Virus record (IMG/VR): IMGVR_UViG_3300032954_000013
Location: 1-60,827 of that record
Direction: 5' to 3' (one strand)
DNA: 60,827 nt
Source of the DNA: a virus
Lineage: Duplodnaviria > Caudoviricetes
Shown here: piece by piece, positions 23,893-39,339 of the stretch
How positions within the stretch are numbered: position 1 is the first letter of the stretch
Layout: every line of letters starts with the position of its first letter
The notes under the pieces: model-generated
Database searches by the model: none
Seen by the model: the letters and a program-made list of their open reading frames with translations, nothing else
Told to the model about the DNA's origin: nothing
Translations under genes and position numbers: made by a program

Positions 23893-24359
23893 CCGAGCAA
23901 GAAGCAAGAGAAGCCATCGTCGCTGAGGCGGTCACTTATCTGGGAACGCCTTTCGTCGATTGCCAGCATGTCAAGGGCGCCGGTGTCGACTGCGGGATGA
24001 TGCCGCTCTCCGTCTACGCGACGGTCGGCGTGATGCAGTGGTTCGAACCCGGCCATTACTCGGTGCAGATTCATCAGCACAAGACCGAGGACGAACAGCG
24101 GGCATCGGGCCAGAAGCCTTATCGCGACTTCGTTCGCGAGCACATGCGGGAGATTCCGGAATCGGAAGTAAAGCCCGGCGATTTCGTCCTCTACTTCTAC
24201 GGCAAATGCTTCTCGCACGGAGCGATCGTGATTGAATGGCCGCACAAGATCATTCACGCCTGCGCCGGCGAGGGAGTTATTTTCGATGATCCGGCGAGAA
24301 ATGGGAGGCTAATGCGGCGGCGGAGGGAATTCTACACGGTTTTCGGAGGAGAGATCTGA
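23889..24359 (+). CDS. NlpC/P60 family tail-associated peptidase
   Basis: YLGTPF, GAGVDC, PGD, SHGAI, IIHA. Confidence 0.9.
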   Translation: MTEQEAREAIVAEAVTYLGTPFVDCQHVKGAGVDCGMMPLSVYATVGVMQWFEPGHYSVQIHQHKTEDEQRASGQKPYRDFVREHMREIPESEVKPGDFVLYFYGKCFSHGAIVIEWPHKIIHACAGEGVIFDDPARNGRLMRRRREFYTVFGGEI

Positions 24360-27300
24360 TGTTCGGAATGGGCGGCCAGAAAATTACTCGTCTCAATCAC
24401 ATTCCCATCACGCAATCGGTCCAGGCCGTCGCCCTTCCGATCGTTCTGGGCCAGGATCGCATTGAAATGTTCCTGCTCTGGTATGGCAATTTCAAATCCA
24501 AAAACGCGGGCGGGAAAAAAGGCGGAAGCGGCAAGGGCTTGGGCGCCAAGGGACAGGGCTACACTTACACGGCCTCTGTTCAAGCCGCGCTCTGCCAAGG
24601 CCCGAGTTCTGGAATCGTCAGCGTCTGGGGATCAAACGGGAAATTCATCCAGCAGACGGCAAGCGAGAACTACACCGTTCCCGGCGGCGGCGGAAGCTAC
24701 ACGTCGGCCAACGCTGCGCTCTTTGCGAACGATGCAGGGGTAGGCGTCCAGACATCCTACAGCCAGGCTGTGAACGATTACGGCTCGCCCGGGCCGACCA
24801 CCCTGTCCGGCACTTACTTGGTTCCGCTGACGGCCGTTTCTTCCTCTCCCGGACTCAACCAATACAGCATCAATCCGTCGACCGGCGTTTACACATTCGG
24901 AGCGGCGATGGCCGGCAAGACGGTAACCGTTTCGTACACGTATTACTACTACTATTACGATACGGAAGAGACCGACATCATTCCGTCGACCGGCCCATAC
25001 CAGATCACCGTTACAAACGCCGCGAACTTCAAGGCCGACCTCGGCGTCGCCTACGATCCAAGCGGCATCGCGCTCACGAAGATTTCATCGGGAACGCCCG
25101 CATCCGGCCAGTACAAGGTAAGCAGCGGCGTCTACACGTTCGCTGCAGCGGACGCGAATAAGGCGGTCACGATCTCTTACGAGTGGCAAAATCAGACGAC
25201 CGAACCGAATGCCCCCAATACGCTCGGCTATACATTCTTCAGCGGCACGCTCGGCCAATCCGTCTGGCCTTTCCTGACCTCGAACTTTCCAGGCGCCGCA
25301 CTGGGCTACAGCCAGATCGCACACGTTGATTTCCAGACTCTCTATCTCGGAGAGGCGGCTACTGTTCCGCCGCTGACTTTTGAGATGATGGGCCGCGATC
25401 AGTACGGTTCCGGCATCGTGGACTGCAACCCCGCCGATTGCATTCTCGACATGCTCACCTCGACGGATGCGGGCATTGGCGCGGGCAGCCCGCTGACATT
25501 TCCACCAGCGTATGTCGGCTCGCTTTCGCAGGCGCGCAAGTGCTGGTCGGCCTACAGTTTCTTTATTTCGAACGCTTACAAGAACCAACAGGACGCGCAG
25601 AGTGTGCTCGCCGCTTGGCTTGAAGCCGGACAGGTCGGGGCGTTCTGGTCGGAAGGCGTGCTGAAATTCGTGCCCTACGCCGATACGTCGGCGGCCGGCA
25701 ATGGACAAATCTACGTTGCCAACACGCAGCCTATTGTGCAGTTAGACGATTCGGACTTCATCGCGGGCGAGAACGAGGATCCGATCAAGATCACCGAGAA
25801 AGAGGCGCCGGACCGATTCAACCGCGTTGCAATCGATTGGGTGGTGCGATCCAACAGCTACAATCATGACATCCTCTACGAAGAGGACCTTTCCGACATT
25901 CAGGCGAACGGCTTGCGGCAGGAAGGGCCAACGACCTACGAATTCATCAAGACGCTTGCAGCCGCGCAGTACGCGGCCTCGACACGCGTCAAGCGGCTCG
26001 TTTATATCTACAGGCAGTACGCTTTCAACTTAAGCTGGATTTACAGCTACCTTGAGCCGATGGACATCGTGCTCATCGCCGATCCCCGCCTCTGGGGTTC
26101 CTATATTCCAGTCCGCATCATCTCCATCGAAGACGATCCCAAGAACGGGCTGGCCATTACGGCGGAAAATTTCCCATGGGGCACGGCAACCGCGTCGCTG
26201 TTCACAAAGCAGACCGTCACACCGAGCTTCCCGCTACAGGGCGGCCAAGACCCGGGATCGATCAACCCGCCGATCATCTTCGAGGCGCCCAACCGCATCA
26301 CAGGCGCGGCGCCGGGAGCATCCGCACAGGCTGGCTACTATCTGGGCTTCGGAATTTGCGGAGCGAATCCGGCGAACTGGGGCGGCTGCAACGTCTGGAT
26401 GTCGGAAGACGGGAACACCTACAAATACGCCGGAACTGTTTACTATCCTTCGCGGATGGGTGTGCTGACCGCGAATTTCCCGAGCGGCAGCGATCCCGAC
26501 ACGGTGAACACATGCTCGGTCGATCTTTCCGAAAGCAGCGCCAACCTGACGAGCGCGAGCACGGCCGACGCCGATGCAGACCGAACGCTGTGCCTCGTGG
26601 ACAATGAACTGATTTCCTACTCCACTGCGACGCTCGTCGCGGGCAGCCTTTACAATCTCACGACTTATATTCGCCGCGGCCAGATGACGACCGCAATTGC
26701 CGCGCATACGACAGGCGCACCGTTCCTTCGCCTTGACGACTCTGTCTTCTACTGGCAGTACGACGCCACGATGATCGGCAAAACGCTCTATTTCAAATTC
26801 ACGTCCTTCAACACGCTCACGCAGATGGAACAGGAGTTGTCCCAGGTCACTGCCTACACGATCACACCGAGCGGAAACAGCATTGGCTTGCTTACGCCTG
26901 CGCATTCGAGCTATCGACCGCTCACGAATCCACTGACGGGGCATGATGCTGGATCAAGCGCGACGATCAACGTCGCCGCCTTCACGATGCGCGTGCCGGG
27001 ACAGGACATCTCCGAGAATTCCGGCTCGATTACGGGTCTCGCGTACAACACGCTCTATTACGTGTACTTTGATGATCCCAATTTCACGGGTGGCACGGTG
27101 AGCTATCAAGCAACGACGGCGAAAGAGACGGCACTTGACGTTGCCGCAAGATTATTTGTTGGGTCAATTCAGACACCATTAGCTGGGGCTCTTGATACGA
27201 CCGGGAATGGTGATGGCGGAAGCGGCGCTCAAAGCGGAATGATGAATGTTCTATCTCCTTCGACAGTCACATCTTCGCTAGTAGGAAACGGATCGGCGTC

Positions 27301-27718
27301 CAATATCCTGAACGCAATCGACGGTAACGACACGACGTTCGCAACTCTTTCGGCGACCGGAAACGGCAGTTCCAATCAAGCAGGATTGGATTTTACGATC
27401 CCGCCAGGCATTGCACGGCGCTATCAATCGATGACGATCGAGATCGTGTATTCCGTGCCCACCAATTCCTTGAACGCGTCACCAGCCCGCACCTGCGCCA
27501 GCCTGGCAGCATTCGGGCCAACCGGATCAGCGCTTGGCGGCGATCTCATTGCAGCTGGCTCAGGTGCTATCACCAAGCGGATTTCGACAATCACGATACC
27601 ACTTGGAACGAATGTCGGTGCTGTAAGCATTAATCCGGGGATCAATTTGAATTCAAGCTCGACATCCGGCAGCATTACCCTTCAAATTTACGAAGTGAGA
27701 ATAAAGGCCATCGAATGA
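24359..27718 (+). CDS. Central tail tip/host-specificity protein (Phage-tail_3-like)
   Basis: 1119 aa; DCNPADCILD, WSEGVLK, LEPMD, WGGC, YIRRG, YFKFTSFN; follows NlpC/P60 as in GTA-type tails. Confidence 0.85.
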   Translation: MFGMGGQKITRLNHIPITQSVQAVALPIVLGQDRIEMFLLWYGNFKSKNAGGKKGGSGKGLGAKGQGYTYTASVQAALCQGPSSGIVSVWGSNGKFIQQTASENYTVPGGGGSYTSANAALFANDAGVGVQTSYSQAVNDYGSPGPTTLSGTYLVPLTAVSSSPGLNQYSINPSTGVYTFGAAMAGKTVTVSYTYYYYYYDTEETDIIPSTGPYQITVTNAANFKADLGVAYDPSGIALTKISSGTPASGQYKVSSGVYTFAAADANKAVTISYEWQNQTTEPNAPNTLGYTFFSGTLGQSVWPFLTSNFPGAALGYSQIAHVDFQTLYLGEAATVPPLTFEMMGRDQYGSGIVDCNPADCILDMLTSTDAGIGAGSPLTFPPAYVGSLSQARKCWSAYSFFISNAYKNQQDAQSVLAAWLEAGQVGAFWSEGVLKFVPYADTSAAGNGQIYVANTQPIVQLDDSDFIAGENEDPIKITEKEAPDRFNRVAIDWVVRSNSYNHDILYEEDLSDIQANGLRQEGPTTYEFIKTLAAAQYAASTRVKRLVYIYRQYAFNLSWIYSYLEPMDIVLIADPRLWGSYIPVRIISIEDDPKNGLAITAENFPWGTATASLFTKQTVTPSFPLQGGQDPGSINPPIIFEAPNRITGAAPGASAQAGYYLGFGICGANPANWGGCNVWMSEDGNTYKYAGTVYYPSRMGVLTANFPSGSDPDTVNTCSVDLSESSANLTSASTADADADRTLCLVDNELISYSTATLVAGSLYNLTTYIRRGQMTTAIAAHTTGAPFLRLDDSVFYWQYDATMIGKTLYFKFTSFNTLTQMEQELSQVTAYTITPSGNSIGLLTPAHSSYRPLTNPLTGHDAGSSATINVAAFTMRVPGQDISENSGSITGLAYNTLYYVYFDDPNFTGGTVSYQATTAKETALDVAARLFVGSIQTPLAGALDTTGNGDGGSGAQSGMMNVLSPSTVTSSLVGNGSASNILNAIDGNDTTFATLSATGNGSSNQAGLDFTIPPGIARRYQSMTIEIVYSVPTNSLNASPARTCASLAAFGPTGSALGGDLIAAGSGAITKRISTITIPLGTNVGAVSINPGINLNSSSTSGSITLQIYEVRIKAIE

Positions 27719-28017
27719 AAACTGTCACGAAGAAGATCAACGACAAGGAAGTCGCGATTGAGATTCACCGATTGCCGTTGCAACCAGGCATGCCTTACTC
27801 GCAAAAGATCGTGGCGAGGCACGGAGATCACAAACTCGAACATGTCGTCACTCATGACCCGGCAAACTTCAAGGCCGAGGACGCCCGGAGGCACATTGAG
27901 GGGATAGTCTATCAACTGGCGGCGAAAGTAGCGGCGATGGGCGACATCGCTGACTTTCTCGATGATTACCACCACGAGTCTAAAAACAATTCTGAGCACG
28001 GGCCGATTGAACCTTGA
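27715..28017 (+). CDS. Hypothetical protein
   Basis: ATGA-coupled to the tail tip gene. Confidence 0.6.
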   Translation: MKTVTKKINDKEVAIEIHRLPLQPGMPYSQKIVARHGDHKLEHVVTHDPANFKAEDARRHIEGIVYQLAAKVAAMGDIADFLDDYHHESKNNSEHGPIEP

Positions 28018-28393: not shown

Positions 28394-28533
28394 GACTTCG
28401 TTCCTTTTTTCGGCCTTCCTCCAAGCTTTCCGTTGCGCGCCGCCGCTTCAGCCTTCGCCTTGGACTTCGTTTCTCCGAGGCAGGCCGGGCAGCGAAGCGT
28501 GACGTGTGGATGCTTGGGGCATTTCACATCCAT
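28390..28533 (-). CDS. Small Zn-binding basic putative DNA-binding protein
   Basis: CPKH..CPAC and ARNGKLGGRPKK; GTG at 28527 is a possible leaderless start. Confidence 0.65.
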   Translation of the reverse strand: MDVKCPKHPHVTLRCPACLGETKSKAKAEAAARNGKLGGRPKKGTKS

Positions 28534-28570: not shown

Positions 28571-28586
28571 AGATATAGAAACGCTT
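28571..28586 (+). promoter_or_regulatory. Conserved late motif AGATATAGAAACGCTT (copy 5)
   Basis: Followed by GAGG and ATG at 28598. Confidence 0.8.
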
Positions 28587-28597: not shown

Positions 28598-31500
28598 ATG
28601 AGAAGAACCCTGCTTGGTTTGGCGGCGCTCGTTCTCCTGCTCGCCGCCCCGATCGCACTGGCGCAAGGCCCTTCGCTTACAACGGTTTCGGCCACCCTCT
28701 ACGCGTCAAACGGCCAGCCGCCAAGCGGAACAATCACAATTTCAACGCCGATACCATTCATTTCCGCAGATGGCTACCCGATCCCCGCGCATACGAACGT
28801 GACGGTGCCGGTCACGAACGGCGCCTTCAGCGTCAAGTTGGTTCCGACTGTGGCAGGGACTCCAGGCGGAGCATACTACATCGCCGGCTACAACCTTCCG
28901 AACGGGAGCTATACCGAATACTGGGTGGTTCCCGCGTCTGCGGTTCCGGTCGGACTCGCGCAGATCCGCGCGCCAGCCCCTCCAGTTCCGAGCATTTCAG
29001 TTCCATTCGCGCAACTCATACCGCCGCTTAATTGCGTGAATCAAACTCCGGAATGGACATCATCTGGCTGGGTCTGCATCACTTCGGGAAGCATCTTTCA
29101 GAGCTTTCAGCTTGGCTCGAATGCTCCGATCAGCGGCGCCGGGAATTATCTCCAGATCACAGGAAGTTCCCCGATTGTCATCGGGACGATGACGGGCCTT
29201 GGCACGATGGCATCCCCTTACGTCGTGCCAATCACTTGCCCGAGTTGCGGGGCGGGCGGCATGGTCTATCCGTCTGCCGGAATCGCCAATTCCACGGGTT
29301 CTGCGTGGGGCACATCCTACCAAGTCGGCACATCGGCGAATGACCTCGTGCAACTCAATTCCAGTGCCCAGCTGCCTCCCGTCAGTGCCGCGCTCCTCAC
29401 GAACTTCCCGACGCTGCCCTATTACGCGAATGTCCAGGCGAACGGTGGGGCGTTGCAGCAGGCAGCTACGCTCAATATCATCGCCGGCCCGAATATGACT
29501 GTCGCTTGCCCCACGTCGGGTGGCGTGACGAATTGCACGCTCAGTTCCACTTCCACCGCTTCGACAGCTTGGAGCGCATTGACGCCGGCAACGAACAGCG
29601 CTGCGGGAACTTTCCTTTCGACCGGCAATGCCTGGGATTTCTCGGCAGCCACTTCATTCAGCGTCCCGACTGTGGGTCTCACATTCCCCGGCTCGACGAG
29701 CGGCAGCGTGATTGTGGCCGCCCCAGCGGTCGCCGGCTCGCAGACGATTGCGTGGCCCGCAGGCTCCGGCACGGTCGCGGTCGGAGCTTCTCCACCGCTC
29801 GCCGAAAGTGCGGCTGGAGTAATTTCATGCCCCGGATGCGCGACGACGACTAACGGCGGTCCGCTTTCGGCCAGTTCGCCGATCACGATCAGCGCCGCCG
29901 GACTCATCGCCTGCGCCAGTTGCAATGTCTCAAATGCCACGGTATCAAGCGTGGGCCTCGCGACGAACGCCGGATGGTTCACGGTCACGAATTCCCCAGT
30001 GACCACGACGGGGAATCTCACTTTCAATCTCACAACCGGCCTCACCGGGAATGAAGTTCTCGCGACTCCCAATGGCTCAAGCGGCGTCATCGCACTCCGC
30101 GCGCTGGTCGGCGCCGATATTCCTGCGATCAATCTGGCCGCGAGTGGCAACGGCGGCGTGACCGGAAACCTCCCTTATTCCCAACTCTCCGGCGCACCGA
30201 CGCTCTACTATCAAACGATTCAGGCGAACGGATCAGCGCAGACGCAAGAGTTGACTGTCAATTATGCGGCCGGATCGAACATGACGATTACGCCGTCACT
30301 CGTGGGCGGCGTAACGACTCTCACCTTCACGGCGAGCACTACAGCTTCGACGGCATGGAGTGCAATCACTCCCGCCACAAATTCGAACGCAGGCACATTC
30401 ACGGCGAGCGGTAACTCATGGGTGTTCTCGGGCGCGAGCGCTTTCACGCTGCCAACTGTGGGCGCGATCTTCCCTGGCTCGACGAGCGGAAACATCACGC
30501 TTATCGCCACAGCCATCGCAGGCACGAACACGATTACCTTGCCAGCCGGGACCGGAACGGTCGCCATCTCCGCATCATCACCGATCACTTTGAGCGCAAC
30601 CGGACAGATCGCCTGCGCGACGTGCAACACGTCCAATGCGACGGTTTCAAGCGTCTCGATTGGCAACCTCTCGCCCCTATTCACCGCGAGTGTGGCGAAT
30701 TCAACCACCACTCCCACGATCTCGTTCACGCTGTCGAATGCGGCGCAAAATTCCGTTTTTGCCGGTCCCGCATCGGGCGGGGCTGGCGCTCCGAGCTTTC
30801 AGACGGCGCCAACATTCAGCGCCGCGAACCTGACGAACTTTCCGGTATTCGGATATTCGAATGGCGGCACCGGGGCGACGAGCTACACGACGAATTGCCT
30901 GCTTGAGGCAGGCGCATCGGCGTTCGCCTGCTCGCATCTCTCCGATAACGGCACGCTGATTTCGGCGACCGAGGGGCTTTCCATCGCTCCGACATCGACT
31001 TCACAGGTCGGCCTCATCGTCAACAATCCATCAAGCACGACCGCCGACATCGCCGATTTCGAAGTGAACGGCTCCATCGTCGCCAAAATCGACAAGAACG
31101 GCAATATCTACGCGGCAGTCGGAAGCAGTGTCGCTGGCCAAACCGTTCTCGCGTTCGGGACTGCGGCGAGTGCGCCATCGAGTGCCATCGGGATCACGGT
31201 TCCTACCAGCGGCACGGCGTATCAGATCGTGCTCCCCGGCGCGCAGCCGAGCGGAAGCAATACCTTCCTGTCTTGCACGTCGGCGAATCCGGCAGTCTGC
31301 AGTTGGGCTGCGGGAGGCGGAGTCACCAGTGTTTCCAACAGCGACGGCACGCTCACGATCTCGCCGACCACCGGAGCAGTCGTGGCTTCGCTCGCGCTCG
31401 GACACGCGAATACCTGGACCGCCGCGCAAACATTCCCCAACATCGTCTTCACAGGAAGCGCTTCCTACGCTCCGACTGCGGCGGGAGTTTTAGGCTACGA

Positions 31501-32395
31501 CACGACCAACAACCGTTATGTCGGAGGCAACGGCACAAACACTTCCTTTCTGACGTGGATCACCGCCGCGCCGACGACGGGCCACCTGGCGACATGGAGC
31601 GGCACGCTCGGACAATTGACGGACGGCGGAGCCGTTCCGACAGGTATGACCTATCCAAGCGGCAGCGGCTTTGCCATCGTCTCGGGCGGTGCAAGCTGGG
31701 GAACAACCCTGGCGATTCCGCTGCCCGTCGCTGATGGCGGCACGGGCACGGCGAGTCCGGGACTTGTGGCCGGTAGCGGCATTAGCATCACGGGAACCTG
31801 GCCGAATCAGACGGTCACGAACACGGGCGGCGGCGGAGGGGGCGGTCAGACCGATCACCCGATCACCACGACAACGGTGCCTCGTGTTTATGGCTTGTCC
31901 ACAACCGCAGCGGTGACGGTTGCCAACACGGTAAGCGCCACGACGATCATCGGCGCGTCGTTCCAGGGCAGCAATGCGATTCCAGCCGGAGCCATGCTGC
32001 CCAACGGACCGGGCACGAAGACGATGAGATACCACGCCTCGGGAGTCATGGGCACGGCGAGCTCGCCACCGACGCTTACCGTGACAGTGCTTCTTGGCGG
32101 CCAAACGCTTTCTTCGATTTCCGTTCCCGTCGTCGGCAGCCTTTCAAGCGATCCATGGGAAATGGACTATTATTTCACGGTCACGGGAATCGGTTCGGCA
32201 CAAGCTGGGGGCTGCGTTCGATTCATCGGCGCCGCCGGCGCTTTTCTGGCCGGGTGTGCGTCAAATGCCAGCATAACCGGTTTGAATTTTGGCGCGAACC
32301 AGACCTTTGACGTGCAAGTGACCTGGGGCACGGCGAGCTCGTCGAATACGATCACTTCCAACCAATCCGTACTCAGTCAGGAGCAGAGTCTATGA
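28598..32395 (+). CDS. Large signal-peptide-bearing fibre-like protein
   Basis: MRRTLLGLAALVLLLAAPIALA-Q leader; Gly/Ser/Thr-rich; CxxC repeats; internal duplication; NGGTG/DGGTG fibre motifs. Confidence 0.8.
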   Translation: MRRTLLGLAALVLLLAAPIALAQGPSLTTVSATLYASNGQPPSGTITISTPIPFISADGYPIPAHTNVTVPVTNGAFSVKLVPTVAGTPGGAYYIAGYNLPNGSYTEYWVVPASAVPVGLAQIRAPAPPVPSISVPFAQLIPPLNCVNQTPEWTSSGWVCITSGSIFQSFQLGSNAPISGAGNYLQITGSSPIVIGTMTGLGTMASPYVVPITCPSCGAGGMVYPSAGIANSTGSAWGTSYQVGTSANDLVQLNSSAQLPPVSAALLTNFPTLPYYANVQANGGALQQAATLNIIAGPNMTVACPTSGGVTNCTLSSTSTASTAWSALTPATNSAAGTFLSTGNAWDFSAATSFSVPTVGLTFPGSTSGSVIVAAPAVAGSQTIAWPAGSGTVAVGASPPLAESAAGVISCPGCATTTNGGPLSASSPITISAAGLIACASCNVSNATVSSVGLATNAGWFTVTNSPVTTTGNLTFNLTTGLTGNEVLATPNGSSGVIALRALVGADIPAINLAASGNGGVTGNLPYSQLSGAPTLYYQTIQANGSAQTQELTVNYAAGSNMTITPSLVGGVTTLTFTASTTASTAWSAITPATNSNAGTFTASGNSWVFSGASAFTLPTVGAIFPGSTSGNITLIATAIAGTNTITLPAGTGTVAISASSPITLSATGQIACATCNTSNATVSSVSIGNLSPLFTASVANSTTTPTISFTLSNAAQNSVFAGPASGGAGAPSFQTAPTFSAANLTNFPVFGYSNGGTGATSYTTNCLLEAGASAFACSHLSDNGTLISATEGLSIAPTSTSQVGLIVNNPSSTTADIADFEVNGSIVAKIDKNGNIYAAVGSSVAGQTVLAFGTAASAPSSAIGITVPTSGTAYQIVLPGAQPSGSNTFLSCTSANPAVCSWAAGGGVTSVSNSDGTLTISPTTGAVVASLALGHANTWTAAQTFPNIVFTGSASYAPTAAGVLGYDTTNNRYVGGNGTNTSFLTWITAAPTTGHLATWSGTLGQLTDGGAVPTGMTYPSGSGFAIVSGGASWGTTLAIPLPVADGGTGTASPGLVAGSGISITGTWPNQTVTNTGGGGGGGQTDHPITTTTVPRVYGLSTTAAVTVANTVSATTIIGASFQGSNAIPAGAMLPNGPGTKTMRYHASGVMGTASSPPTLTVTVLLGGQTLSSISVPVVGSLSSDPWEMDYYFTVTGIGSAQAGGCVRFIGAAGAFLAGCASNASITGLNFGANQTFDVQVTWGTASSSNTITSNQSVLSQEQSL

Positions 32396-33306
32396 GCAAG
32401 CTAAAGTTTTTGCTGCCGATGATTCTCGTCGCGTGCCTCGCATCTGCGGCCCATGGGCAGGGGCAGACGCTTTGCCCGACGAATACGTGGCCGTATCCGA
32501 ACGATCCGGTCACGGGAACCACGCAGTACACGCTCACGAAGATTAATTCGAGCGGCAATGCGGTCATCATGGCGACGACCGACACCGCCGGTTTTGCCGG
32601 TATCGCAATCTATGGAGCCGGGCAATCCGGCAGTGTGTGCCTGGCGAGAATCGGACTCTGGCCGCTCAAGATGTCAAACACCGCGACCGCGCAGCACTAC
32701 GTCCAGATTTCTTCCGGGACCGGGGGCGATGGTGCTGATACGGGAGCGACGACTTATCCGACCAGCGGCGGAGACGTGATTGGGCGCGTTCAGGCCTACG
32801 TGAGCGGCGCAGGGCTTGCGATAGTCGATCTTGGGCCGGAAGTGCAGGCCGTTGGACTTCCCAACGTAACAAACGATGCACAGACCAAAGCGGCCATCGT
32901 TCCCAATACGACTCCCTCGGCCGGGCAGCTTCTTGTCGGCAATGCGGGCGGAACGGCCTACGCGCCAGTCACGATGAGCGGCGATTGCACGATCACAAGC
33001 GCGGGAGCCATGGCCTGCGTTCCCCACGTTGCCGATACCACGATCACGATCGGCACCACGGCCATCAGCGGGAACAGCAAGACGACGGTCGCCACGGTGA
33101 CGATGACCGGCGCAACTACCTCGATGGTGGTTTCGATCTCTCCTTCGGCTGATTACAGCGGCACGACTGGATGGGGGACGACCGGAGGCTTGGTCATCAT
33201 GGCCTGGGTGAGCTCGGCGAACACGGTTAGCTACTACGTCATCAATCAGACGGCGTCAAGCATCACGCCGGGAGCCTCAACGACGTGGAATGTGAGCGTG
33301 CGATGA
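32392..33306 (+). CDS. Signal-peptide-bearing fibre-like protein
   Basis: MSKLKFLLPMILVACLASAAHG-Q leader; Thr/Gly-rich; MSGDCTITSAG motif. Confidence 0.75.
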   Translation: MSKLKFLLPMILVACLASAAHGQGQTLCPTNTWPYPNDPVTGTTQYTLTKINSSGNAVIMATTDTAGFAGIAIYGAGQSGSVCLARIGLWPLKMSNTATAQHYVQISSGTGGDGADTGATTYPTSGGDVIGRVQAYVSGAGLAIVDLGPEVQAVGLPNVTNDAQTKAAIVPNTTPSAGQLLVGNAGGTAYAPVTMSGDCTITSAGAMACVPHVADTTITIGTTAISGNSKTTVATVTMTGATTSMVVSISPSADYSGTTGWGTTGGLVIMAWVSSANTVSYYVINQTASSITPGASTTWNVSVR

Positions 33307-34058
33307 TCCGCAGAATTCTCACTATCGCATTCGCGTTGTCTCTCGTTCCATTTCTTGCTTTCGGACAGAATACCGTCCCGCAAGCAACTGGGGCAATCGC
33401 AGGGAGCGGCGGCGGCACCAATCCCGCATACGTCCAAGGGTCTACCGGCTTTACGGCCAGCGCCACGAATGTCTCGGCTACTCTGTCTGCGGTTGGTGCC
33501 GGTCATGGCCTGTTCGTCTACTGCATGGCACCGTCAAGCGCCTGCGCGGCTCCCACGGCGACAGGGGAGAGCTTCTCGACCTACACGGGAACATCGGGTT
33601 GCCAGGATTTCGGAGGCTACAACGTCCAGTGCTGGCTGGCGACTTCCACGGTTGGAGGGGAGACATCACTTACCTGCAACACGGGCGGCGGCACATCTGC
33701 GATTTTTTGCATCGTGATCGAATTCACAAGGCCGCAGGCGCTCGCCACTCCCAAGGACGCGGGCGGGCACAACAACACCGCCGGATCGACGAATTCCTGG
33801 TCCGTCTCTACCTCCGCTGCCACTACGAACGCCAACGATTTTGTAATTGGATGCTTCGGCTCGGTCAATATCGGCAACAACACCATTACAGTTGGAAGCC
33901 CATTTACCCAGCCCGCCGCCGCTTCGATCTCCAACTCCAGCGGGGAGGCCGCTTGCGGTTATCTCGTGGCGTCTTCCACAGGCACGCAGACCGCGACGGG
34001 TTCAGCGACATCGAACATGACCAATACCAACGGCGTAATTCTGGCGGTAAAGCCGTGA
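33303..34058 (+). CDS. Signal-peptide-bearing Cys-containing beta-rich protein
   Basis: MIRRILTIAFALSLVPFLAFG-Q leader; several Cys; two similar halves. Confidence 0.75.
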   Translation: MIRRILTIAFALSLVPFLAFGQNTVPQATGAIAGSGGGTNPAYVQGSTGFTASATNVSATLSAVGAGHGLFVYCMAPSSACAAPTATGESFSTYTGTSGCQDFGGYNVQCWLATSTVGGETSLTCNTGGGTSAIFCIVIEFTRPQALATPKDAGGHNNTAGSTNSWSVSTSAATTNANDFVIGCFGSVNIGNNTITVGSPFTQPAAASISNSSGEAACGYLVASSTGTQTATGSATSNMTNTNGVILAVKP

Positions 34059-36115
34059 CGCCTTACCAGCCAGCGATGTCGAACCAGTCGGCTTTCTGCC
34101 TGCGAAGCGCAGCGAAGAAATTCCTGATGCGATCGGCCATCTTTTTCATTGCGGCCCTCTTTTATGCTGGTCCGAGTATAGCACAGGCCCCGATCTGGCC
34201 CGGACAATCCGGCAACTATGTGGGCTTCGCGGCGGCTCCGGGCTGGCCCGGTTCATTTACCGCCACGGCCTGCCCATCCTCGCCCGCGAGCGGCACTAGC
34301 TGGGCCAACGCGACAATCGTCACGAATTGCACCTACAGCACGTCGAGCCACATATCGGTCAGTTGCCACTACTGCGAATTCCTGTACGTGGACTTCAAGA
34401 CTTCGGCGACCAATGACGATACGGTTCTGGTCAGCGGGCAGAACATACTTTTCATGGGAGACCGCTTCCAGTCGAACTGCGTCGAGTGCGGAGACGTGTC
34501 CGTGACCAGCTCGGCGAGCGCGGTTTACTTCTTCTACGACAGCACCACGCCGCTAGTTTCCTACTACATTTCGCCTCCGGGCACGGGATGCAGCGAGGTT
34601 ACGCCGGGGAACATCGGCTGCACGGGCTGGCCCGCCGCCGGAATTAACACTTTCAACCCGATAGAAGAAACCGGATTCACTCCGGGCGCGATTACTCCAT
34701 CGAACGCGACGGCGGTGAACGGCAACAAGGGGTATGAGTTCGGCTTCAACCTCAACAGCAGCACGGGCACGGTATGGATCGACTCGTGCGACATCTGGGG
34801 ATTCGGGGACGCCATCGTCAGTCAGACCTCGACCGCCCAGCAAACGATTACCAACACGTGGATTCACGACGCCGCTTATCCTTCCGAGCAAAGCTACCAC
34901 GTGGACGGCTACGGGTACTCAAACGGCGCTGTGGGGCCAAACAATGTGACGCTGATCGGCACGGTTACGGCAATTTATGGCGGCGGTGGAACCGATGGGC
35001 TGGCCCTGCAAGCGGCGACGGGCGGCTACCAGAACATCTACGTGGCCGAGAATTTCTTCAGCGGCGATGGAGCGACGATTGCATGGTGCCATCCTGGTTC
35101 CGTTCAATGCACCAACTCCTATTTCTACGGGAATACTTTCGGGACAGACATGCAGCCGGGAGGACCGGTTTACGGGTTCACCACCACGCTCGGCTCCGGA
35201 AGCCAGTGGATATGCAATCGAATCTCGTTCCGCTCGGGAACCTCATGGACGGACCAGAACGATAACTGGACGCCCACTTCCGGGATGAACGGGCAATATT
35301 TCCTCTGGGCGCAAGGCACCGCTCCTAACTACGCCTACAACAATTCAACCGACACCGGAGGGAATACGGTCTGCGGCGTCCCTGCGCCATCCACGATCAA
35401 TTTCGGTACGCAGGCGAGCGGCACCAGCTCATCCGCCCAGACGGTCACGCTCTACGCCAACAATACGGCGAATCTCACGGGCGTTTCCGTGGCGCTGGCA
35501 GGCGGAACGCAGTTCTCCATCGTATCGAACGGCTGCGGATCGACGGTGACGGCTGGAACCAACTGCGCGATCACGGTCAAGTTTTCGCCGACCGGACTGG
35601 GGCCGCAGACCGATACGCTCAAAATCACGGACAACACACCGGGAGTGACTTCGCCGCAACTCGTGCCTTTGGCGGGAACAGGCATCAATAGCACGGCCGT
35701 GGTGCTTTCGCCTTCGAGTGAGAATTTCGGCTCGATCAATGTAGGCAGCTCTAGCAGTCCCGCCACTTTCACCCTTACGAATAACAATTCCACGACGGCG
35801 ACGAGTATTTCGCCTTCGGTCCCATCGGGCGCCGACCCTTCGGACTTCTCGATCACGAATTCCGGCGCTGGTTCCTGTTCGGCTGCGGGCGGGTCACTTG
35901 CACAAGGAGTCAGTTGCACTTTCACCGTCACATTTACGCCCGGCGCAACCGGATCGCGTTCGGCGACTTTGAGCGTCTCCTATAGCGGCGGAGACGGTGC
36001 AAGTCCGCAGACGGCGGCACTATCAGGTACTGGAACATCAAGCGGAGTTTCTAATCCAGTTGTGCTCAGCGGATCCGTAACGCAGAATGGCAATAGTTCG
36101 ATTCAGGCGAAATAA
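34055..36115 (+). CDS. Exported beta-helix-like protein with two C-terminal ASH/choice-of-anchor-D Ig-like domains
   Basis: Leader MRSAIFFIAALFYAGPSIA-Q (ATG 34127); NFG..SSAQTVTL..C...C.ITVKFSPT..G and a second copy; IWGFGD, WIHD, HVDG beta-helix-like turns. Confidence 0.75.
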   Translation: MTPYQPAMSNQSAFCLRSAAKKFLMRSAIFFIAALFYAGPSIAQAPIWPGQSGNYVGFAAAPGWPGSFTATACPSSPASGTSWANATIVTNCTYSTSSHISVSCHYCEFLYVDFKTSATNDDTVLVSGQNILFMGDRFQSNCVECGDVSVTSSASAVYFFYDSTTPLVSYYISPPGTGCSEVTPGNIGCTGWPAAGINTFNPIEETGFTPGAITPSNATAVNGNKGYEFGFNLNSSTGTVWIDSCDIWGFGDAIVSQTSTAQQTITNTWIHDAAYPSEQSYHVDGYGYSNGAVGPNNVTLIGTVTAIYGGGGTDGLALQAATGGYQNIYVAENFFSGDGATIAWCHPGSVQCTNSYFYGNTFGTDMQPGGPVYGFTTTLGSGSQWICNRISFRSGTSWTDQNDNWTPTSGMNGQYFLWAQGTAPNYAYNNSTDTGGNTVCGVPAPSTINFGTQASGTSSSAQTVTLYANNTANLTGVSVALAGGTQFSIVSNGCGSTVTAGTNCAITVKFSPTGLGPQTDTLKITDNTPGVTSPQLVPLAGTGINSTAVVLSPSSENFGSINVGSSSSPATFTLTNNNSTTATSISPSVPSGADPSDFSITNSGAGSCSAAGGSLAQGVSCTFTVTFTPGATGSRSATLSVSYSGGDGASPQTAALSGTGTSSGVSNPVVLSGSVTQNGNSSIQAK

Positions 36116-36125: not shown

Positions 36126-36545
36126 ATGAAATCGAAAAGCATCTTGGCGCTGGTCATCGTTGCATTGATTGCTGCGTTTGCTTTCGGTTGGCATGAGTTT
36201 GGCTCGCATTCGTCCTCGGTTTCGGCCTCGGCGCCAAACGCCAAGGATTGCATGCCGAGCTCGCCGACCGATATGAGTTGCCCGTCGCAGGACTATCTCG
36301 ACCTGCAGGCGCGCGCAGCGAAGGCTCAGGCCGAGATTAACGACTTGATGCAATCGGATGAAGTGAAGAAGTTGAACGCGGAAATTCAGGAGAAGCAGAT
36401 CACCTGGAAGGGAATCGAAGTGACGCTGAATCAGATGACGCCGCGCGATCCGATGGGGCGCGCCTACGGCTACGACGACAAGACGCACCGATTCACTCCG
36501 CCTCCGAATCCAGCGCCGCAGTCTCCGCCGCCGGCCAAGAAATGA
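36126..36545 (+). CDS. N-anchored coiled-coil protein (possible i-spanin-like)
   Basis: N-terminal TM/signal, heptad segment, Pro-rich tail; AGGAG RBS. Confidence 0.55.
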   Translation: MKSKSILALVIVALIAAFAFGWHEFGSHSSSVSASAPNAKDCMPSSPTDMSCPSQDYLDLQARAAKAQAEINDLMQSDEVKKLNAEIQEKQITWKGIEVTLNQMTPRDPMGRAYGYDDKTHRFTPPPNPAPQSPPPAKK

Positions 36546-36700
36546 ACGATGAAGGCGAGCCCGTCGCGGTGCATTTCGATCGTTATTGCCCGCACTGCGG
36601 ACGCACGACGAAGCACGCGATGGTTGACGGCGAACCGAAGTGCGAAGAGTGTTCCAAGCGGGATAATTTGCTCGAGTTTCCGAGGAGGCCCAGCCAATGA
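36542..36700 (+). CDS. Small Zn-ribbon protein
   Basis: Manual translation contains CPHC and CEEC; ATGA-coupled on both sides. Confidence 0.55.
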   Translation: MNDEGEPVAVHFDRYCPHCGRTTKHAMVDGEPKCEECSKRDNLLEFPRRPSQ

Positions 36701-37143
36701 TGGTCATGGTGCAGCAGGTTGATGTCGCTCACGTTCACCCGCATGTGATTTGGTTTTTCTACTGGACTGGATGGTTCATGCACATCCTCTGCGTGGCCTA
36801 CCTGACGGCCAAGAGCGCGGTGAACCCGGCGAAGGACATCTGGGACTATCTCGTCCAGAAATGGCCCCCCATCTTGATTCGCATGTTCCTCGTCACGCTC
36901 GGATTCCTGTTCTGGAAGTTCAATCCGACCGTTGTGAATGATTTCGGCAAGCACTGGGCATCCAGCCTTTCGCCGGGAACTTTTCACGATCTGATCCTGA
37001 GCGTCGGGATTCCGCTCAACGCCTTCACTGCGGGCCTCTACGGTTACGTGGGCGACTCGCTATTCGACAAGCTGCTCGGCTTCACGCCCTGGTTCAAAAG
37101 CGTCGTGCCGCCGCTCGCGCAGAATGCCGTGCAAAATCCATGA
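36697..37143 (+). CDS. Putative holin-like membrane protein
   Basis: About three hydrophobic segments; GLYGYVGDSLFDK; GGAGG RBS. Confidence 0.55.
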   Translation: MMVMVQQVDVAHVHPHVIWFFYWTGWFMHILCVAYLTAKSAVNPAKDIWDYLVQKWPPILIRMFLVTLGFLFWKFNPTVVNDFGKHWASSLSPGTFHDLILSVGIPLNAFTAGLYGYVGDSLFDKLLGFTPWFKSVVPPLAQNAVQNP

Positions 37144-37424
37144 GCGAGGGCGACAGAGCAATCCCGGTAGCCGCGAGTCCAGACGACAGGGTAAATCCGA
37201 TCTGGAAGTATGTGGCTATGACCGTCGTCGGTATGCTGCTCGGCGGCGCTCCGTCCTACATCTCTCTCTCGATCGACCATCACTACGCGATGACCAAGAC
37301 GGACGTTGACGGCGAGGTGGACAGCCACACGCAGGCCATCGTGCAGAGCGTAAGCGACCTGAAAGAGCAAGTGAAGGAACTCGCCGGAGAAGTCCACGAG
37401 CTTTCGAGGGCGCGCGACAAATGA
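37140..37424 (+). CDS. Membrane protein with C-terminal coiled coil
   Basis: One TM then heptads, typical of lysis-region genes. Confidence 0.6.
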   Translation: MSEGDRAIPVAASPDDRVNPIWKYVAMTVVGMLLGGAPSYISLSIDHHYAMTKTDVDGEVDSHTQAIVQSVSDLKEQVKELAGEVHELSRARDK

Positions 37425-37427
37425 CGG

Positions 37428-37602
37428 TAGCTCCATCGGGGCGCATGCGTAGTAGCCGCTGTGAATCCGGTCCGTAAACTCTACGCATGCGCCCCCAAGG
37501 AGGCTATTGCTTTTGAGGATAATCCATGCCACATTGTCAACCGTTCACTCCGATTGCCCCAACCGGGACGGCGGGTTAGGCCCCCTGAACGCCTGCCGTC
37601 CC
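37428..37602 (+). other. Two long intergenic hairpins
   Basis: Perfect 15-bp IR 37438-37452/37481-37495; 12-bp stem 37565-37576/37591-37602. Confidence 0.7.
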
Positions 37603-37621
37603 AAGAGATAAGGAGACGAAA

Positions 37622-38224
37622 GTGAAACACTGGATTCGCCTCATCTTGTTCGCCCGCAAGTATCACATGCTGTTCCTCGCCGCCGGATTGCTAATGCTCA
37701 CCGTCAGCCTGTGCGCCTGCAACATTCCCGCATGGATTTCAACTGGCGAAGCCGTCATTGGCCTAGCCGAAACGATGATTGGAGCAATCCTGACTGCGAT
37801 GGGTGCTGTCGGCGCGGCAGCGACGATGGTCTCAATCGTAAACAAGATTCTCGCGGCTATGCAGGATGCTCTCGCGATGTACGAGGAATACAAAAACAAT
37901 CCGTCCACGACACTGCTAAGCTCCATTAAAGAAGGTTTCCAGGCCGTCCTCGATGGTGCCACGCAGTTTATGACGGACACGGGCGTTACGAACGTGAACC
38001 TTCAGAACAAGCTGAAGTCGATCATGCAGCTCGTCATCAACGAAATCACGGCCCTGCAATCGACGCTCCCGGCGCTCGTCGCTAAGGCTGGCGAGCAGTT
38101 CACCGTGACGGTGCCGATGGACAAGAAGCAGTTTGTGGCCGCGTACAATCAGATCATCGGAACACCGACTGGCGATGCGGAATGCGACGGCATTCTGGCG
38201 CAACTCAAGGCTCTCAAGGCGTAG
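37622..38224 (+). CDS. Putative lipoprotein
   Basis: Hydrophobic leader ending SLCA-C; AAGGAG RBS; amphipathic helical body. Confidence 0.65.
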   Translation: MKHWIRLILFARKYHMLFLAAGLLMLTVSLCACNIPAWISTGEAVIGLAETMIGAILTAMGAVGAAATMVSIVNKILAAMQDALAMYEEYKNNPSTTLLSSIKEGFQAVLDGATQFMTDTGVTNVNLQNKLKSIMQLVINEITALQSTLPALVAKAGEQFTVTVPMDKKQFVAAYNQIIGTPTGDAECDGILAQLKALKA

Positions 38225-38252
38225 CGGTCGCAAAGCTGAAACGGCTCTAAAT

Positions 38253-38447
38253 TTTTGCGCGGCGGATGCGTAGGACGCATCACCTAAGTGTGAGCACCAA
38301 GCCGAGGGAATCCCGGCTGGCAAAATCCCGGCGGATACGCGGCCAACGTCGGAGACATAGTGGCCTCCGAGCTGCTAGGGAGTCTCAGGGATGGGCTGCG
38401 GCTCACTGCTGAAGGCCCACGGCCGAGTAAGGCAATGCCGCGCAAAA
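38253..38447 (+). ncRNA. Candidate multi-helix structured RNA, family not recognised
   Basis: 11-bp closing stem TTTTGCGCGGC/GCCGCGCAAAA enclosing at least five hairpins; no ORF. Confidence 0.6.
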
Positions 38448-38469
38448 TCTTTTAGTGGAGAAATAGCCA

Positions 38470-39339
38470 ATGGAACTTCCGCTTTCTCCCGCTGGGCGTC
38501 GGTATGGTGGCAAGCCTTCCCGCATTGACCATCGTGATTACGGCCCTCCGCTGCATATCCTCACGATGCGCGGCCCACTCGCTTCGCGCATTCTGCTCCC
38601 AGACCCTCCAAGCGGTACATCGACGCTCGGTGCGGTAAAAGACCAAGGCCAACAGGGAAGCTGCGATGGTCACGCCTCGAGCGAATGCGGGGAGCGGCTC
38701 TGGCGATTCGTCAAAGGCGAAGCGCTGATCTTCTCGCCAGCGTTCGCCTACTACCAGATTCGCAAATTCGAAGGCACGCTCGACCAGGGCGACTGCGGCG
38801 GCCAGATCGTCTCTGGCATGATCATTGCGGACGGAAATCCCGGTGCTGGGGGCATTGGCTACTGCCCGAATGAGCTGATGCCCTATAACCAAAATGATTG
38901 CTCAACTCCGCCATCGGCAGATGCGCTCGCTGCGGCCGCAAAATATCCGGGCGGCTCGTACCACAACATCGGGAACAATATCGGGCTCATCAAATCCTGC
39001 ATCGCTTCTGGCTACAGCTTCGAAATCGGCATCGCAGTCTACGATTCCTTTGAATCGGATACGGTCGCTGGCAATGGCCTCGTACCGATTCCGGCTCCGA
39101 GCGAGAACCTTCTGGGCTATCATGCGCTCCATTGCGGGATGATCGCTGATGACACGATCAAGTGCCCGGGAGTACCAAATCCCGGCGCCGTGATGTTCCA
39201 GAATAGCTGGGGCTCGAATTGGGGCTGCGAATGCCCGCTGACATCAGAGCGCGGCTACGGCTGGCTCGCCTATGATTTTCTCAATAGCACCGACCTCACG
39301 ATCGATGTCCGCATGAGTCATCTTGGGGGACCTTGGTAG
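38470..39339 (+). CDS. Papain-like cysteine peptidase (C1 family)
   Basis: DQGQQGSC, GYHA, QNSWGSNWG with Cys/His/Asn triad. Confidence 0.92.
   Translation: MELPLSPAGRRYGGKPSRIDHRDYGPPLHILTMRGPLASRILLPDPPSGTSTLGAVKDQGQQGSCDGHASSECGERLWRFVKGEALIFSPAFAYYQIRKFEGTLDQGDCGGQIVSGMIIADGNPGAGGIGYCPNELMPYNQNDCSTPPSADALAAAAKYPGGSYHNIGNNIGLIKSCIASGYSFEIGIAVYDSFESDTVAGNGLVPIPAPSENLLGYHALHCGMIADDTIKCPGVPNPGAVMFQNSWGSNWGCECPLTSERGYGWLAYDFLNSTDLTIDVRMSHLGGPW

What the first reader, a model, noticed from the sequence alone, without database searches (positions are those of the whole stretch)
28598..36115. Late operon of fibre-like proteins that all carry Sec signal peptides: possible periplasmic fibre maturation pathway
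Seen: four consecutive genes in the tail-fibre position, behind a late motif copy, begin with basic-hydrophobic-cleavage leaders (..APIALA-Q, ..SAAHG-Q, ..FLAFG-Q, ..PSIA-Q). All predicted mature chains start with Gln. The proteins are Ser/Thr/Gly-rich with paired cysteines (CPSC, CPGC, CASC, CATC) and NGGTG-type fibre motifs. Known: tailed-phage virions assemble in the reducing cytoplasm and fibres normally lack signal peptides; disulfides form in the periplasm and exposed N-terminal Gln can cyclise to pyroglutamate. Inference: either the fibres are exported, oxidatively folded and added to virions at or after lysis, or the phage decorates the host envelope late in infection. Neither is a standard Caudoviricetes route.
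Basis: partly seen in the sequence, partly recalled or inferred. Interest (0 to 1): 0.85.

Follow-up and report, generated by a model that had tools for sequence, protein, structure and literature searches.

The report
Phage fibre proteins carrying secretion signals
A soil phage puts ordinary bacterial secretion signals and paired cysteines on all its fibre-like late proteins, so they very probably fold outside the cytoplasm where tailed-phage particles are built, a route described in no paper that I found.

Summary
The window is a whole 60.8-kb siphophage with a GTA-type tail module. Four coupled genes behind the host-specificity gene (28598-36115) each start with a basic-hydrophobic-AxA/G leader followed by Gln. 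By my crude rule this is 4 of 4 genes, against 6 of 68 elsewhere. A 16-nt motif shared with four other sites in the portal-to-tail-tube region precedes them.

The leaders are conserved in relatives of all four proteins. Mature g1 has 18 Cys in nine close pairs. Leader-bearing relatives have even Cys counts (33 of 36, 62 of 68, 25 of 31); leaderless ones do not. Export and oxidative folding are therefore well supported (about 0.85), but without a trained predictor or any experiment.

The destination is open. I favour docking onto particles when lysis mixes the compartments (0.4). The rival is a role off the particle, as surface fibres like Bdellovibrio MAT adhesins or as an EPS enzyme (0.33). 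The g1 N-domain sits on a giant exported fibre in 67 of 81 genomes of the likely host family, and that fibre is kept where head genes are lost.

This scan noted the same phenomenon earlier on other phage genomes. I found no paper describing it for tailed-phage parts.

The parts
28571..28586 (+). Copy of the 16-nt motif AGATATAGAAACGCTT, 11 nt before the g1 start
   Evidence: Five copies, all on the + strand (7694, 11135, 12199, 17840, 28571). 0 of 100 shuffles reached 5.
28598..32395 (+). g1, a 1265-aa fibre-like protein. Leader: residues 1-22. Conserved N-domain: residues 23-165 (28664-29092). About 55-aa fibre module: residues 216-273 (29243-29416). Nine Cys pairs.
   Evidence: No Pfam or PHROG hit.
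32392..33306 (+). g2, a 304-aa trimeric fibre-like protein. Leader: residues 1-22. Beta-rich N-domain about 30-150. Shared fibre module 154-209. C-terminal knob 210-304.
   Evidence: Model pLDDT 84. Foldseek hits to capsid decoration proteins and the phi29 gp8.5 base. Trimer score 0.85 against a best control of 0.43. Homologues.
33303..34058 (+). g3, a 251-aa exported two-sandwich protein with 8 Cys. Leader: residues 1-21.
   Evidence: Model pLDDT 88.5. No clear fold match.
34127..36115 (+). g4, a 662-aa exported protein (679 aa from 34076). Leader, then an N-terminal catalytic-type domain that carries Beta_helix in some homologues, then two ASH/HYDIN-type Ig domains (about 35390-36028).
   Evidence: Pfam PF22073, PF15780 and PF22544. 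Homologues. No match among solved structures by sequence.
14752..15453 (+). h1, a fibre-like protein in the head module with an N-terminal hydrophobic leader. Its C-terminal domain is shared with the N-terminus of the next-but-one gene (16022-16894).
   Evidence: BLASTP E 3e-7, 30% identity over 60 aa.
15466..16020 (+). h2, a second leader-bearing fibre-like protein in the head module. It shares its post-leader motif with h1.
   Evidence: h1/h2 54.5% identity over 33 aa, E 6e-6. Weak tail-fibre PHROG hit, E 0.005.
24359..27718 (+). Host-specificity (J-like) protein directly upstream. It has no leader.
   Evidence: Pfam Phage-tail_3 and Rcc01698_C; PHROG tail protein at 4.7e-71.
36126..39339 (+). 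Probable lysis region directly downstream (inferred): a signal-anchor protein, membrane proteins, a lipobox-like protein and a peptidase-like protein.
   Evidence: N-termini. Weak PHROG peptidase hit for 38470-39339. No Pfam hits. The roles are inferred, not shown.

Best explanation
g1 to g4, and h1 and h2 in the head module, are made together with the virion genes. They are sent through the Sec translocon, cut by signal peptidase I (exposing Gln), and folded and disulfide-bonded in the periplasm as trimeric fibres and accessory proteins. Heads and tails are meanwhile built in the cytoplasm.

My commitment for the next step is that the two sets of parts meet only when the holin breaches the inner membrane. 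The exported fibres then dock onto finished particles inside the still-enclosed envelope or in the lysate, which would be a two-compartment assembly.

Shown from sequence:
- The leaders exist and are conserved.
- The cysteines are paired.
- The genes share a motif with virion operons.
- Fibre modules are shared with leaderless phage fibres.
- g2 is predicted to form a trimer.

Inferred: export, cleavage, pyroglutamate and disulfides.

Guessed: docking on particles.
For: Export:
- Leaders on 4 of 4 operon genes against 6 of 68 elsewhere.
- Leader-like N-termini by my rule in 36 of 48 g1 hits, 31 of 47 g3 representatives and 50 of 61 top g4 hits.
- 47 of the 48 g2 hits that cover the N-domain have a leader (I corrected two script calls by eye).
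- The conserved mature domain starts right at the predicted cut in the g1, g2 and g4 families.
- Even Cys counts in leader-bearing relatives: 33 of 36, 62 of 68 and 25 of 31. Leaderless relatives give 2 of 9, 26 of 42 and 9 of 15.
- Nine close Cys pairs in g1.

Virion link:
- The motif at 28571 also stands at four other sites in the portal-to-tail-tube region.
- The genes follow the J-like gene and are coupled to one another.
- Fibre modules are shared at about 80% identity with leaderless proteins that have ordinary fibre N-termini.
- A relative carries BppL_N.
- In other J-type phage loci, the fibre-like genes after J also carry leaders: L040, and the Desulfobaccales or 'delta proteobacterium' prophages L005, L006, L007, L010 and L013.
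- The phage has no other side-fibre candidate among the ORFs I scanned.
- g2 is predicted to be a trimer: score 0.85, best of 3 controls 0.43, runs agree in at least 84% of contacts, partner pLDDT at least 89. That mark was reached by 20 of 30 solved pairs and 1 of 23 single chains, and the pass may come from likeness to solved trimers.
Against: - No experiment and no trained predictor supports export or cleavage.
- No case of a tailed-phage part added from the periplasm turned up in my searches.
- The N-domains that follow the leaders differ from the N-termini of leaderless virion fibres.
- The g1 N-domain is shared with a different phage-like element that lacks a J-like gene. It is therefore unlikely to be a specific dock for this tail.
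- That element's giant fibre is kept in genomes that have lost the head genes, so such fibres work without particles.
- The decoration-like fold of the g2 N-domain also occurs inside giant fibre ORFs, so it does not argue for capsid docking.
- The g4 family has an odd Cys count in 34 of 50 leader-bearing members. It looks like ordinary secreted bacterial enzymes and was not found in viral contigs.
- Disulfides can also form in virions without export (PMC13576161; I saw the listing and the start of the abstract only).
Confidence: 0.4

Rival explanations
1. The proteins are exported but are not virion parts. They act on or at the host envelope. g1, g2, h1 and h2 would be surface or periplasmic fibres like the Bdellovibrio MAT adhesins. 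g4 would be a secreted enzyme that cuts the host's exopolysaccharide or receptor, and g3 a small lectin-like protein. Possible uses are masking or destroying receptors on debris so that progeny are not lost, excluding other phages, or sticking the infected cell to neighbours.
For: - MAT fibres have the same layout. [quoted passage not shown]
- The g1 N-domain (about 140 aa, right after the leader) is found in 67 of 81 genomes of the likely host family, mostly once, in frames of 1000-3100 aa.
- In L060, L061 and L009 the giant fibre and the beta-helix gene remain while the terminase-to-tail genes are gone.
- g4 relatives are named 'choice-of-anchor D domain-containing protein', and almost all carry leaders.
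- Porphyromonas phages encode five unknown proteins with Q-rule leaders, which those authors read as modifiers of the host outer membrane (PMC10367356, passages read).
Against: - About 8.8 kb (14%) of the genome would then go to non-virion proteins that sit in the two classic appendage positions: after the major capsid gene and after J.
- The four genes are co-oriented and coupled, and stand behind the motif shared with virion operons.
- No outer-membrane anchor or sorting signal is visible at the C-termini. By eye on the sequences there is no PEP-CTERM-like tail. Pfam found no barrel or Peptidase_S74.
- Free receptor-binding fibres released at lysis would compete with the progeny.
Confidence: 0.33
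2. The N-terminal hydrophobic stretches are not working secretion signals. The proteins stay in the cytoplasm, or are tethered to the inner face of the membrane, and assemble in the normal way. Alternatively they use Tat, so that they cross the membrane already folded.
For: - No predictor or experiment was available.
- g1, g3 and h2 begin with RR, and Tat carries folded oligomers.
- The authors of PMC10367356 treat some phage 'signal peptides' on capsid proteins as not being secretion signals.
Against: - All four leaders have the three-part shape: a positive start, an uncharged core of 10-15 residues with mean hydropathy 2.5-3.2, and small residues at -3 and -1.
- Leader sequences drift while their character is kept in dozens of relatives.
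- Even, locally paired Cys occur only in leader-bearing relatives. This fits folding of an unfolded chain in an oxidising compartment and does not fit Tat.
- The cores are far more hydrophobic than is usual for Tat signals. This last point is recalled knowledge, not tested here.
Confidence: 0.1
3. The genes are host-derived cargo (morons). They would be expressed independently in a lysogen for lysogenic conversion, like lambda lom and bor beside the tail-fibre genes.
For: - The position after J is where lom sits in lambda (recalled).
- The g1 N-domain and the g4 family are common in bacterial genomes.
- A true divergent small gene with a leader does lie at 27980-28393 on the minus strand.
Against: - g1 to g4 are on the late strand, are coupled, and stand behind the motif shared with virion units.
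- No promoter-like or terminator-like excess was found in the region: 2 promoter-like sites against 3.9 expected, and 9 terminator-like sites against 10.0 expected.
- No integrase was found among the ORFs tested. Not every ORF was tested.
- The same layout recurs after J in other phages.
Confidence: 0.08

Closest known systems
Bdellovibrio bacteriovorus mosaic adhesive trimer (MAT) fibres (Caulton et al. 2024, PMC10769870)
   Same: Both have a signal peptide followed directly by a conserved beta-rich N-domain of about 130-140 aa, then a chimeric trimeric fibre built from phage-fibre-like modules with varied tips. MAT fibres are exported and work outside the cytoplasm (g1 layout).
   Different: MATs are chromosomal genes of a predator and sit on its own surface. 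Here the genes lie in a phage late operon. No S74 chaperone-protease domain was found in g1 to g4.
Leaderless tail fibres and receptor-binding proteins of tailed phages
   Same: They share fibre modules. The 55-aa module of g1 is about 80% identical in many proteins, and g2 residues 154-209 are 70-95% identical in many others. Some of these proteins have ordinary leaderless fibre N-termini. A relative carries BppL_N. The genes also sit in the same place, after the host-specificity gene.
   Different: The proteins here have cleavable-looking Sec leaders, paired cysteines and their own N-domains. Known fibres fold and attach in the cytoplasm.
Capsid decoration proteins and the phi29 head fibre gp8.5 (N base)
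   Same: The 20 best PDB matches shown for the g2 model (ranks 1-20) are capsid, decoration or cement entries, including the phi29 gp8.5 base. The best are 8qsy (E 2.5e-4, TM 0.70 on the target, 128 columns) and 6qyy_A (E 1.4e-3, TM 0.70). g2 is also predicted to be a trimer.
   Different: Sequence identity is 10-16%. The same domain occurs in the middle of giant fibre ORFs, so here it is an in-line fibre module and not demonstrably a capsid dock. g2 also carries a leader.
Q-rule signal-peptidase I substrates of Bacteroidetes, and the Q-rule proteins of Porphyromonas phages (PMC5837995, PMC10367356)
   Same: Gln stands at +1 after the predicted cut in 4 of 4 proteins and in most leader-bearing relatives. 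Phage proteins adapted to the host's export signals have been noted before.
   Different: The likely host here is Acidobacteriota, which that study did not analyse (0 occurrences of the word). The Porphyromonas phage proteins are of unknown function and were not described as fibres in the passages I read.

Membership tests
Sec / signal peptidase I (type I) signal peptide | Positively charged start, uncharged hydrophobic core, and small residues at -3 and -1 before the cut | tested here: met
   All four leaders fit my own rule and fit by eye. Pro or Gly lies 4-6 residues before the cut in g1, g3 and g4.
Sec / signal peptidase I (type I) signal peptide | The leader is kept in relatives while its sequence drifts | tested here: met
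   36 of 48 g1 hits, 47 of 48 g2 hits covering the N-domain, 31 of 47 g3 representatives and 50 of 61 g4 hits.
Sec / signal peptidase I (type I) signal peptide | Call by a trained predictor; cleavage and export shown by experiment | not testable with these tools
   No SignalP or similar tool was on hand, and there are no proteomic data for this phage.
Bacteroidetes Q-rule substrates | Gln at +1 after the cut | tested here: met
   4 of 4 here. Gln stands at a candidate +1 site in 25 of 36, 59 of 67, 24 of 31 and 33 of 50 leader-bearing relatives.
Bacteroidetes Q-rule substrates | Host belongs to Bacteroidetes and has a glutaminyl cyclase | tested here: not met
   Relatives lie mostly in Acidobacteriota: 32 of 46 loci by record title. 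PF05096 was found in 1 of 4 related genomes. In the flanks, 18 of 56 leaders had Gln at +1, but many of those are orthologues.
Phage tail fibre / receptor-binding protein | Shares fibre modules with known or typical phage fibres | tested here: met
   Tail-fibre PHROG hit for the L040 relative (E 7.9e-5) and virion structural protein PHROG hit for the L037 giant fibre (E 2.9e-10). g1 to g3 themselves hit no Pfam or PHROG family.
Phage tail fibre / receptor-binding protein | N-terminal domain that attaches to the particle; presence in virions | not testable with these tools
   No virion data exist. The N-domains match no known attachment domain. The Atlas look-up gave only weak leads below 0.9.
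Capsid decoration / phi29 gp8.5-type head fibre | Decoration-type fold forming a trimer | tested here: met
   Foldseek matches. Trimer model 0.85 against a best control of 0.43.
Capsid decoration / phi29 gp8.5-type head fibre | The domain serves as the capsid-binding base | tested here: inconclusive
   The same domain lies inside giant fibre ORFs in the 13 of 81 genomes that had a match. Capsid binding itself cannot be tested here.
MAT fibres (Bdellovibrio) | Signal peptide, then a conserved beta-rich N-domain of about 130 aa, then a chimeric fibre | tested here: met
   The g1 family has the leader, then residues 23-165 conserved in 9 aligned relatives. This is a match of layout only.
MAT fibres (Bdellovibrio) | Sequence or fold kinship of the N-domain; surface location | not tested
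Moron / lysogenic-conversion gene (lom, bor type) | Own transcription signals, set apart from the late operon | tested here: not met
   The genes are on the late strand, are coupled, and follow the shared motif. There is no excess of promoter-like or terminator-like sites.
Beta-helix tailspike depolymerase (for g4) | Right-handed beta-helix catalytic domain with an N-terminal particle-binding domain | tested here: inconclusive
   Some g4 relatives carry PF13229, but g4 itself gave no Beta_helix hit. No particle-binding domain was seen; the mature chain begins with the family motif WPGQSGN.

The most novel reading that the evidence does not exclude
A two-compartment assembly line for a tailed phage. 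Heads and tails are built in the cytoplasm. All accessory head and tail fibres are exported by Sec, trimmed to pyroglutamate ends, disulfide-locked and perhaps glycosylated in the periplasm. They are clipped onto particles only when the holin opens the inner membrane. The same trick would be used by several phage lineages of Acidobacteriota and Desulfobacterota. It would also have seeded the host's own surface fibres.
Probability: 0.3. Interest if true: 0.9.

Novelty: new variant of a known kind. Interest (0 to 1): 0.7.

Why it matters
Tailed-phage particles are taught as purely cytoplasmic assemblies. If appendages are matured in the periplasm, three things follow:
- Host range and stability in soil phages would depend on host export, disulfide and perhaps glycosylation machinery.
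- Annotation pipelines that discard 'secreted' proteins as non-structural would mislabel receptor-binding proteins.
- Producing such fibres for host-range work would need periplasmic expression.

If they are instead non-virion proteins, phages of Acidobacteriota would be spending about a seventh of their genome on remodelling the envelope late in infection, which is also undescribed.

Either way, the contrast in Cys parity between leader-bearing and leaderless relatives gives a cheap sequence test that can be applied across viromes.

Tried and rejected
The metagenome scan with P0002 found only a 2-kb contig. Viral-contig scans gave 2 loci with the J-like protein, 1 marginal locus with g1 and none with g4. 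The phage collection gave one short hit for g1, none for g2, and only 31-36% identical J-like proteins. No cultured relative with virion proteomics is therefore at hand.

Alignment A1 was too diverse for a locus scan.

g3 fold. Foldseek gave nothing at E <= 0.001. The VIA wide search gave a best Z of 6.3 (APCbeta domain) and Z 5.1-5.5 to TNF/C1q-like heads such as Pgp3 and the Tuc2009 RBP head. That is too weak to name a fold.

g4 found no relative among solved structures by sequence.

The Atlas look-up of the g1 N-domain stayed below 0.9.

Ideas rejected:
- 'The g2 N-domain proves capsid docking' was rejected.
- 'The host locus is an ordinary chromosomal gene cluster' was rejected. The locus holds terminase, portal and adaptor genes.
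- A Q-rule for Acidobacteriota as a settled fact was rejected. My flank survey is small and full of orthologues.

The self-BLAST of g1 printed no internal repeat at 1e-5.

Literature searches listed no paper on exported tailed-phage fibres or decoration proteins. I judged those searches from titles and abstract starts only.

Supplements were closed. Supplementary Data 4 of PMC10367356, which lists the leader-bearing genes of the Porphyromonas phages, might name tail parts.

Full report
What the window is. The window is the whole record, one contig of 60,827 bases. It is a phage genome. The late arm holds, in order:
- large terminase, 5923-7695;
- portal, 8066-10525;
- a long protein at 19465-21621, in the place of a tape measure;
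- a GTA-type distal tail set: DUF2460 (21625), BR0599 hub (22885), NlpC/P60 (23889), and a 1119-aa Phage-tail_3 / Rcc01698_C host-specificity protein (24359-27718).

The finding lies directly after that gene. A small gene with a leader, on the opposite strand at 27980-28393, separates the two.

The observation. They are g1 (28598-32395), g2 (32392-33306), g3 (33303-34058) and g4 (34127-36115, or from 34076). The g1/g2 and g2/g3 junctions overlap as ATGA.

With one crude rule, 10 of 72 ORFs pass. The rule asks for net positive charge before an uncharged 9-residue core of mean hydropathy at least 2.3, then small residues at -3 and -1. All 4 genes of the operon pass, against 6 of 68 elsewhere (Fisher p = 2e-4). 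Two of the six others are fibre-like genes in the head module: h1 (14752-15453) and h2 (15466-16020). They share a post-leader motif. The phage therefore has six such proteins.

The 16-nt motif before g1 has five copies, all on the + strand. The other four stand at 7694, 11135, 12199 and 17840. None of 100 shuffles gave five. This ties the operon to the virion genes and argues against an independent moron.

Are the leaders real signals? No trained predictor was available, so I used three indirect tests.

1. Conservation.
- By my rule, 36 of 48 g1 hits have a leader, as do 31 of 47 g3 representatives and 50 of 61 top g4 hits.
- Of the 48 g2 hits that cover its N-domain, 47 have a leader. The script also gave 47, but it missed P0084 and wrongly passed P0161; I corrected both by eye.
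- Leader sequences differ freely, while the conserved mature domain begins at the predicted cut: TTV... in g1...FPY..PNDxxTGTTQ in g2, and WPGQSGN in g4.

2. Cysteines.
- Mature g1 has 18 Cys in nine successive pairs, 3 to 14 residues apart. None of 200,000 random placements did this.
- Across relatives, leader-bearing proteins have even Cys counts: 33 even to 3 odd (g1), 62 to 6 (g2) and 25 to 6 (g3). Leaderless relatives show 2 to 7, 26 to 16 and 9 to 6.
- The g4 family is mostly odd, 16 even to 34 odd.
- Relatives are not independent samples, so the binomial values overstate the case, but the contrast is clear.

3. Fit to the host.
- The conserved fibre module and the g1 N-domain found 46 loci, of which 32 are Acidobacteriota by record title.
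- In those relatives Gln at +1 is common.
- In Desulfobaccales or 'delta proteobacterium' prophages the equivalent proteins have leaders but no Gln. None of 16 leaders in those loci had Gln at any candidate site. In Acidobacteriota flanks, 18 of 56 had Gln at the best-scoring site and 23 of 56 at any candidate site. This is a rough survey with many orthologues.
- The Q-rule paper did not analyse Acidobacteria.
- A glutaminyl cyclase family (PF05096) was found in 1 of 4 related genomes.

What the proteins are.
- g1 is mosaic. It has a 140-residue N-domain right behind the leader, shared with nine aligned relatives. It also has a 55-residue module that is about 80% identical in many proteins. 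Some of those proteins are leaderless and have ordinary fibre N-termini.
- g2 folds with confidence (pLDDT 84). Its N-domain gave the 20 best PDB matches shown (ranks 1-20), all to capsid, decoration or cement entries, including the phi29 head-fibre base. The best is E 2.5e-4 with TM 0.70 on the target.
- Three copies of mature g2 are predicted to form one intertwined trimer. The score is 0.85 and the best of 3 controls 0.43. The runs agree in at least 84% of contacts and the partner pLDDT is at least 89. That mark was reached by 20 of 30 solved pairs and 1 of 23 single chains, and the pass may reflect likeness to solved trimers.
- The same g2 domain lies in the middle of giant fibre ORFs in bacterial genomes. 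I therefore read it as a fibre module, not as proof of capsid docking.
- g3 is a two-sandwich protein with no clear fold match.
- g4 has two ASH-type Ig domains. It belongs to a large family of leader-bearing proteins, some carrying Beta_helix and some named 'choice-of-anchor D'.
- The C-terminal domain of h1 matches the N-terminus of the protein at 16022-16894 (E 3e-7).

The same thing elsewhere.
- In L040, an Acidobacteriaceae contig whose J-like protein is 38.5% identical over 913 residues, the three genes after J all carry leaders. One has a lipobox and two have Gln at +1.
- In the Desulfobaccales or 'delta proteobacterium' prophages L005, L006, L007, L010 and L013, the fibre-like genes after J also carry leaders.
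- In two other J-type viral contigs, L001 and L002, they do not.

A different, small phage-like element.
- In the likely host family, a small element encodes in order: a sigma-region-4 protein, a phosphatase, a giant leader-bearing fibre with the g1 N-domain, a leader-bearing beta-helix protein, then terminase, portal and adaptor genes.
- The N-domain is present in 67 of 81 genomes, mostly once.
- The terminase is present in 56 of 81, next to the N-domain, and is broken in several. These tallies include the unpublished genomes G006 and G029.
- In three genomes the head genes are gone, but the fibre and the beta-helix gene remain between the same flanking genes.
- A J-like protein was not found in four of these genomes.

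How it most likely works. Export and oxidative folding are the well-supported steps; I put them at about 0.85. The next step is open.

I commit, at 0.4, to docking on particles when lysis mixes the compartments. My reasons are:
- The genes sit in the two classic appendage positions.
- They share the motif of the virion units.
- They trade modules with ordinary fibres.
- They are the only side-fibre candidates I found.
- They recur after J in other phages.

The main rival, at 0.33, is a role off the particle, like the surface-displayed MAT fibres of Bdellovibrio. MAT fibres have the same layout of signal, N-domain and chimeric fibre. The host family also keeps its giant fibre without head genes. 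Non-functional leaders or Tat (0.1) and independent morons (0.08) fit the data poorly.

Novelty. Searches listed no paper on exported fibres or decoration proteins of tailed phages. The nearest in print are Q-rule leaders on unknown proteins of Porphyromonas phages and the MAT fibres.

The scan's own notebook shows the same phenomenon noted on several other phage genomes, with later checks keeping the observation and pricing the bold reading low. This window is therefore one more case, not the first.

This window adds five things:
- the contrast in Cys parity between leader-bearing and leaderless relatives;
- a +1 residue that follows the host group;
- the link by a shared late motif;
- two further leader-bearing genes in the head module;
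- the tie to a host-family-wide element.

Noticed in passing
L037, L050, L009, L017, L022, L060, L061 (genomes G001-G084): A phage-like element that is single-copy and apparently sits at one chromosomal site. Its gene order is: sigma-r4 protein, phosphatase, giant exported fibre, exported beta-helix protein, terminase, portal, adaptor and others. The fibre N-domain occurs in 67 of 81 genomes of one family and the terminase in 56 of 81 at 45-65% identity, with several terminases broken. In three genomes the head genes are deleted but the fibre is kept. It is a candidate domesticated prophage or gene-transfer-agent-like element. The tallies include the unpublished genomes G006 and G029.
   Followed up: partly
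window 27980-28530, minus strand: A divergent pair of small genes lies between the J-like gene and g1. One is a short zinc-ribbon-like ORF ending at 28390. The other is a 137-aa protein with a leader and Gln at +1. It looks like a true moron, possibly for exclusion.
   Followed up: no
window 15169-15450 and 16022-16300: The C-terminal domain of h1 and the N-terminal domain of the next-but-one gene are related (BLASTP E 3e-7, 30% identity over 60 aa). The second has a weak DUF4183 hit. The pair may form a docking pair.
   Followed up: partly
window 683-5920: A glycosyltransferase cassette lies before the large terminase. GT2 hits are at 683-1315 and 5093-5920, and there is a weak Galactosyl_T hit at 2388-3014. 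It could glycosylate the Ser/Thr-rich exported fibres, but this was not tested.
   Followed up: partly
L005, L006, L007, L010, L013: Prophages in Desulfobaccales or 'delta proteobacterium' MAGs have the same J-like gene, followed by two leader-bearing fibre-like proteins with a PG_binding_1 protein between them. None of the leaders there is followed by Gln.
   Followed up: partly
window 34127-36115 and its relatives: The g4 family has an odd Cys count in 34 of 50 leader-bearing members (17 in the window's protein). The other three families are even. One Cys may therefore be free.
   Followed up: no
window 43273-43998 (minus strand) and 50230-52455: An Imm-5-like immunity-protein domain (E 7.8e-10) and a fused SNF2-helicase/DNA-methylase protein lie in the early arm.
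   Followed up: no
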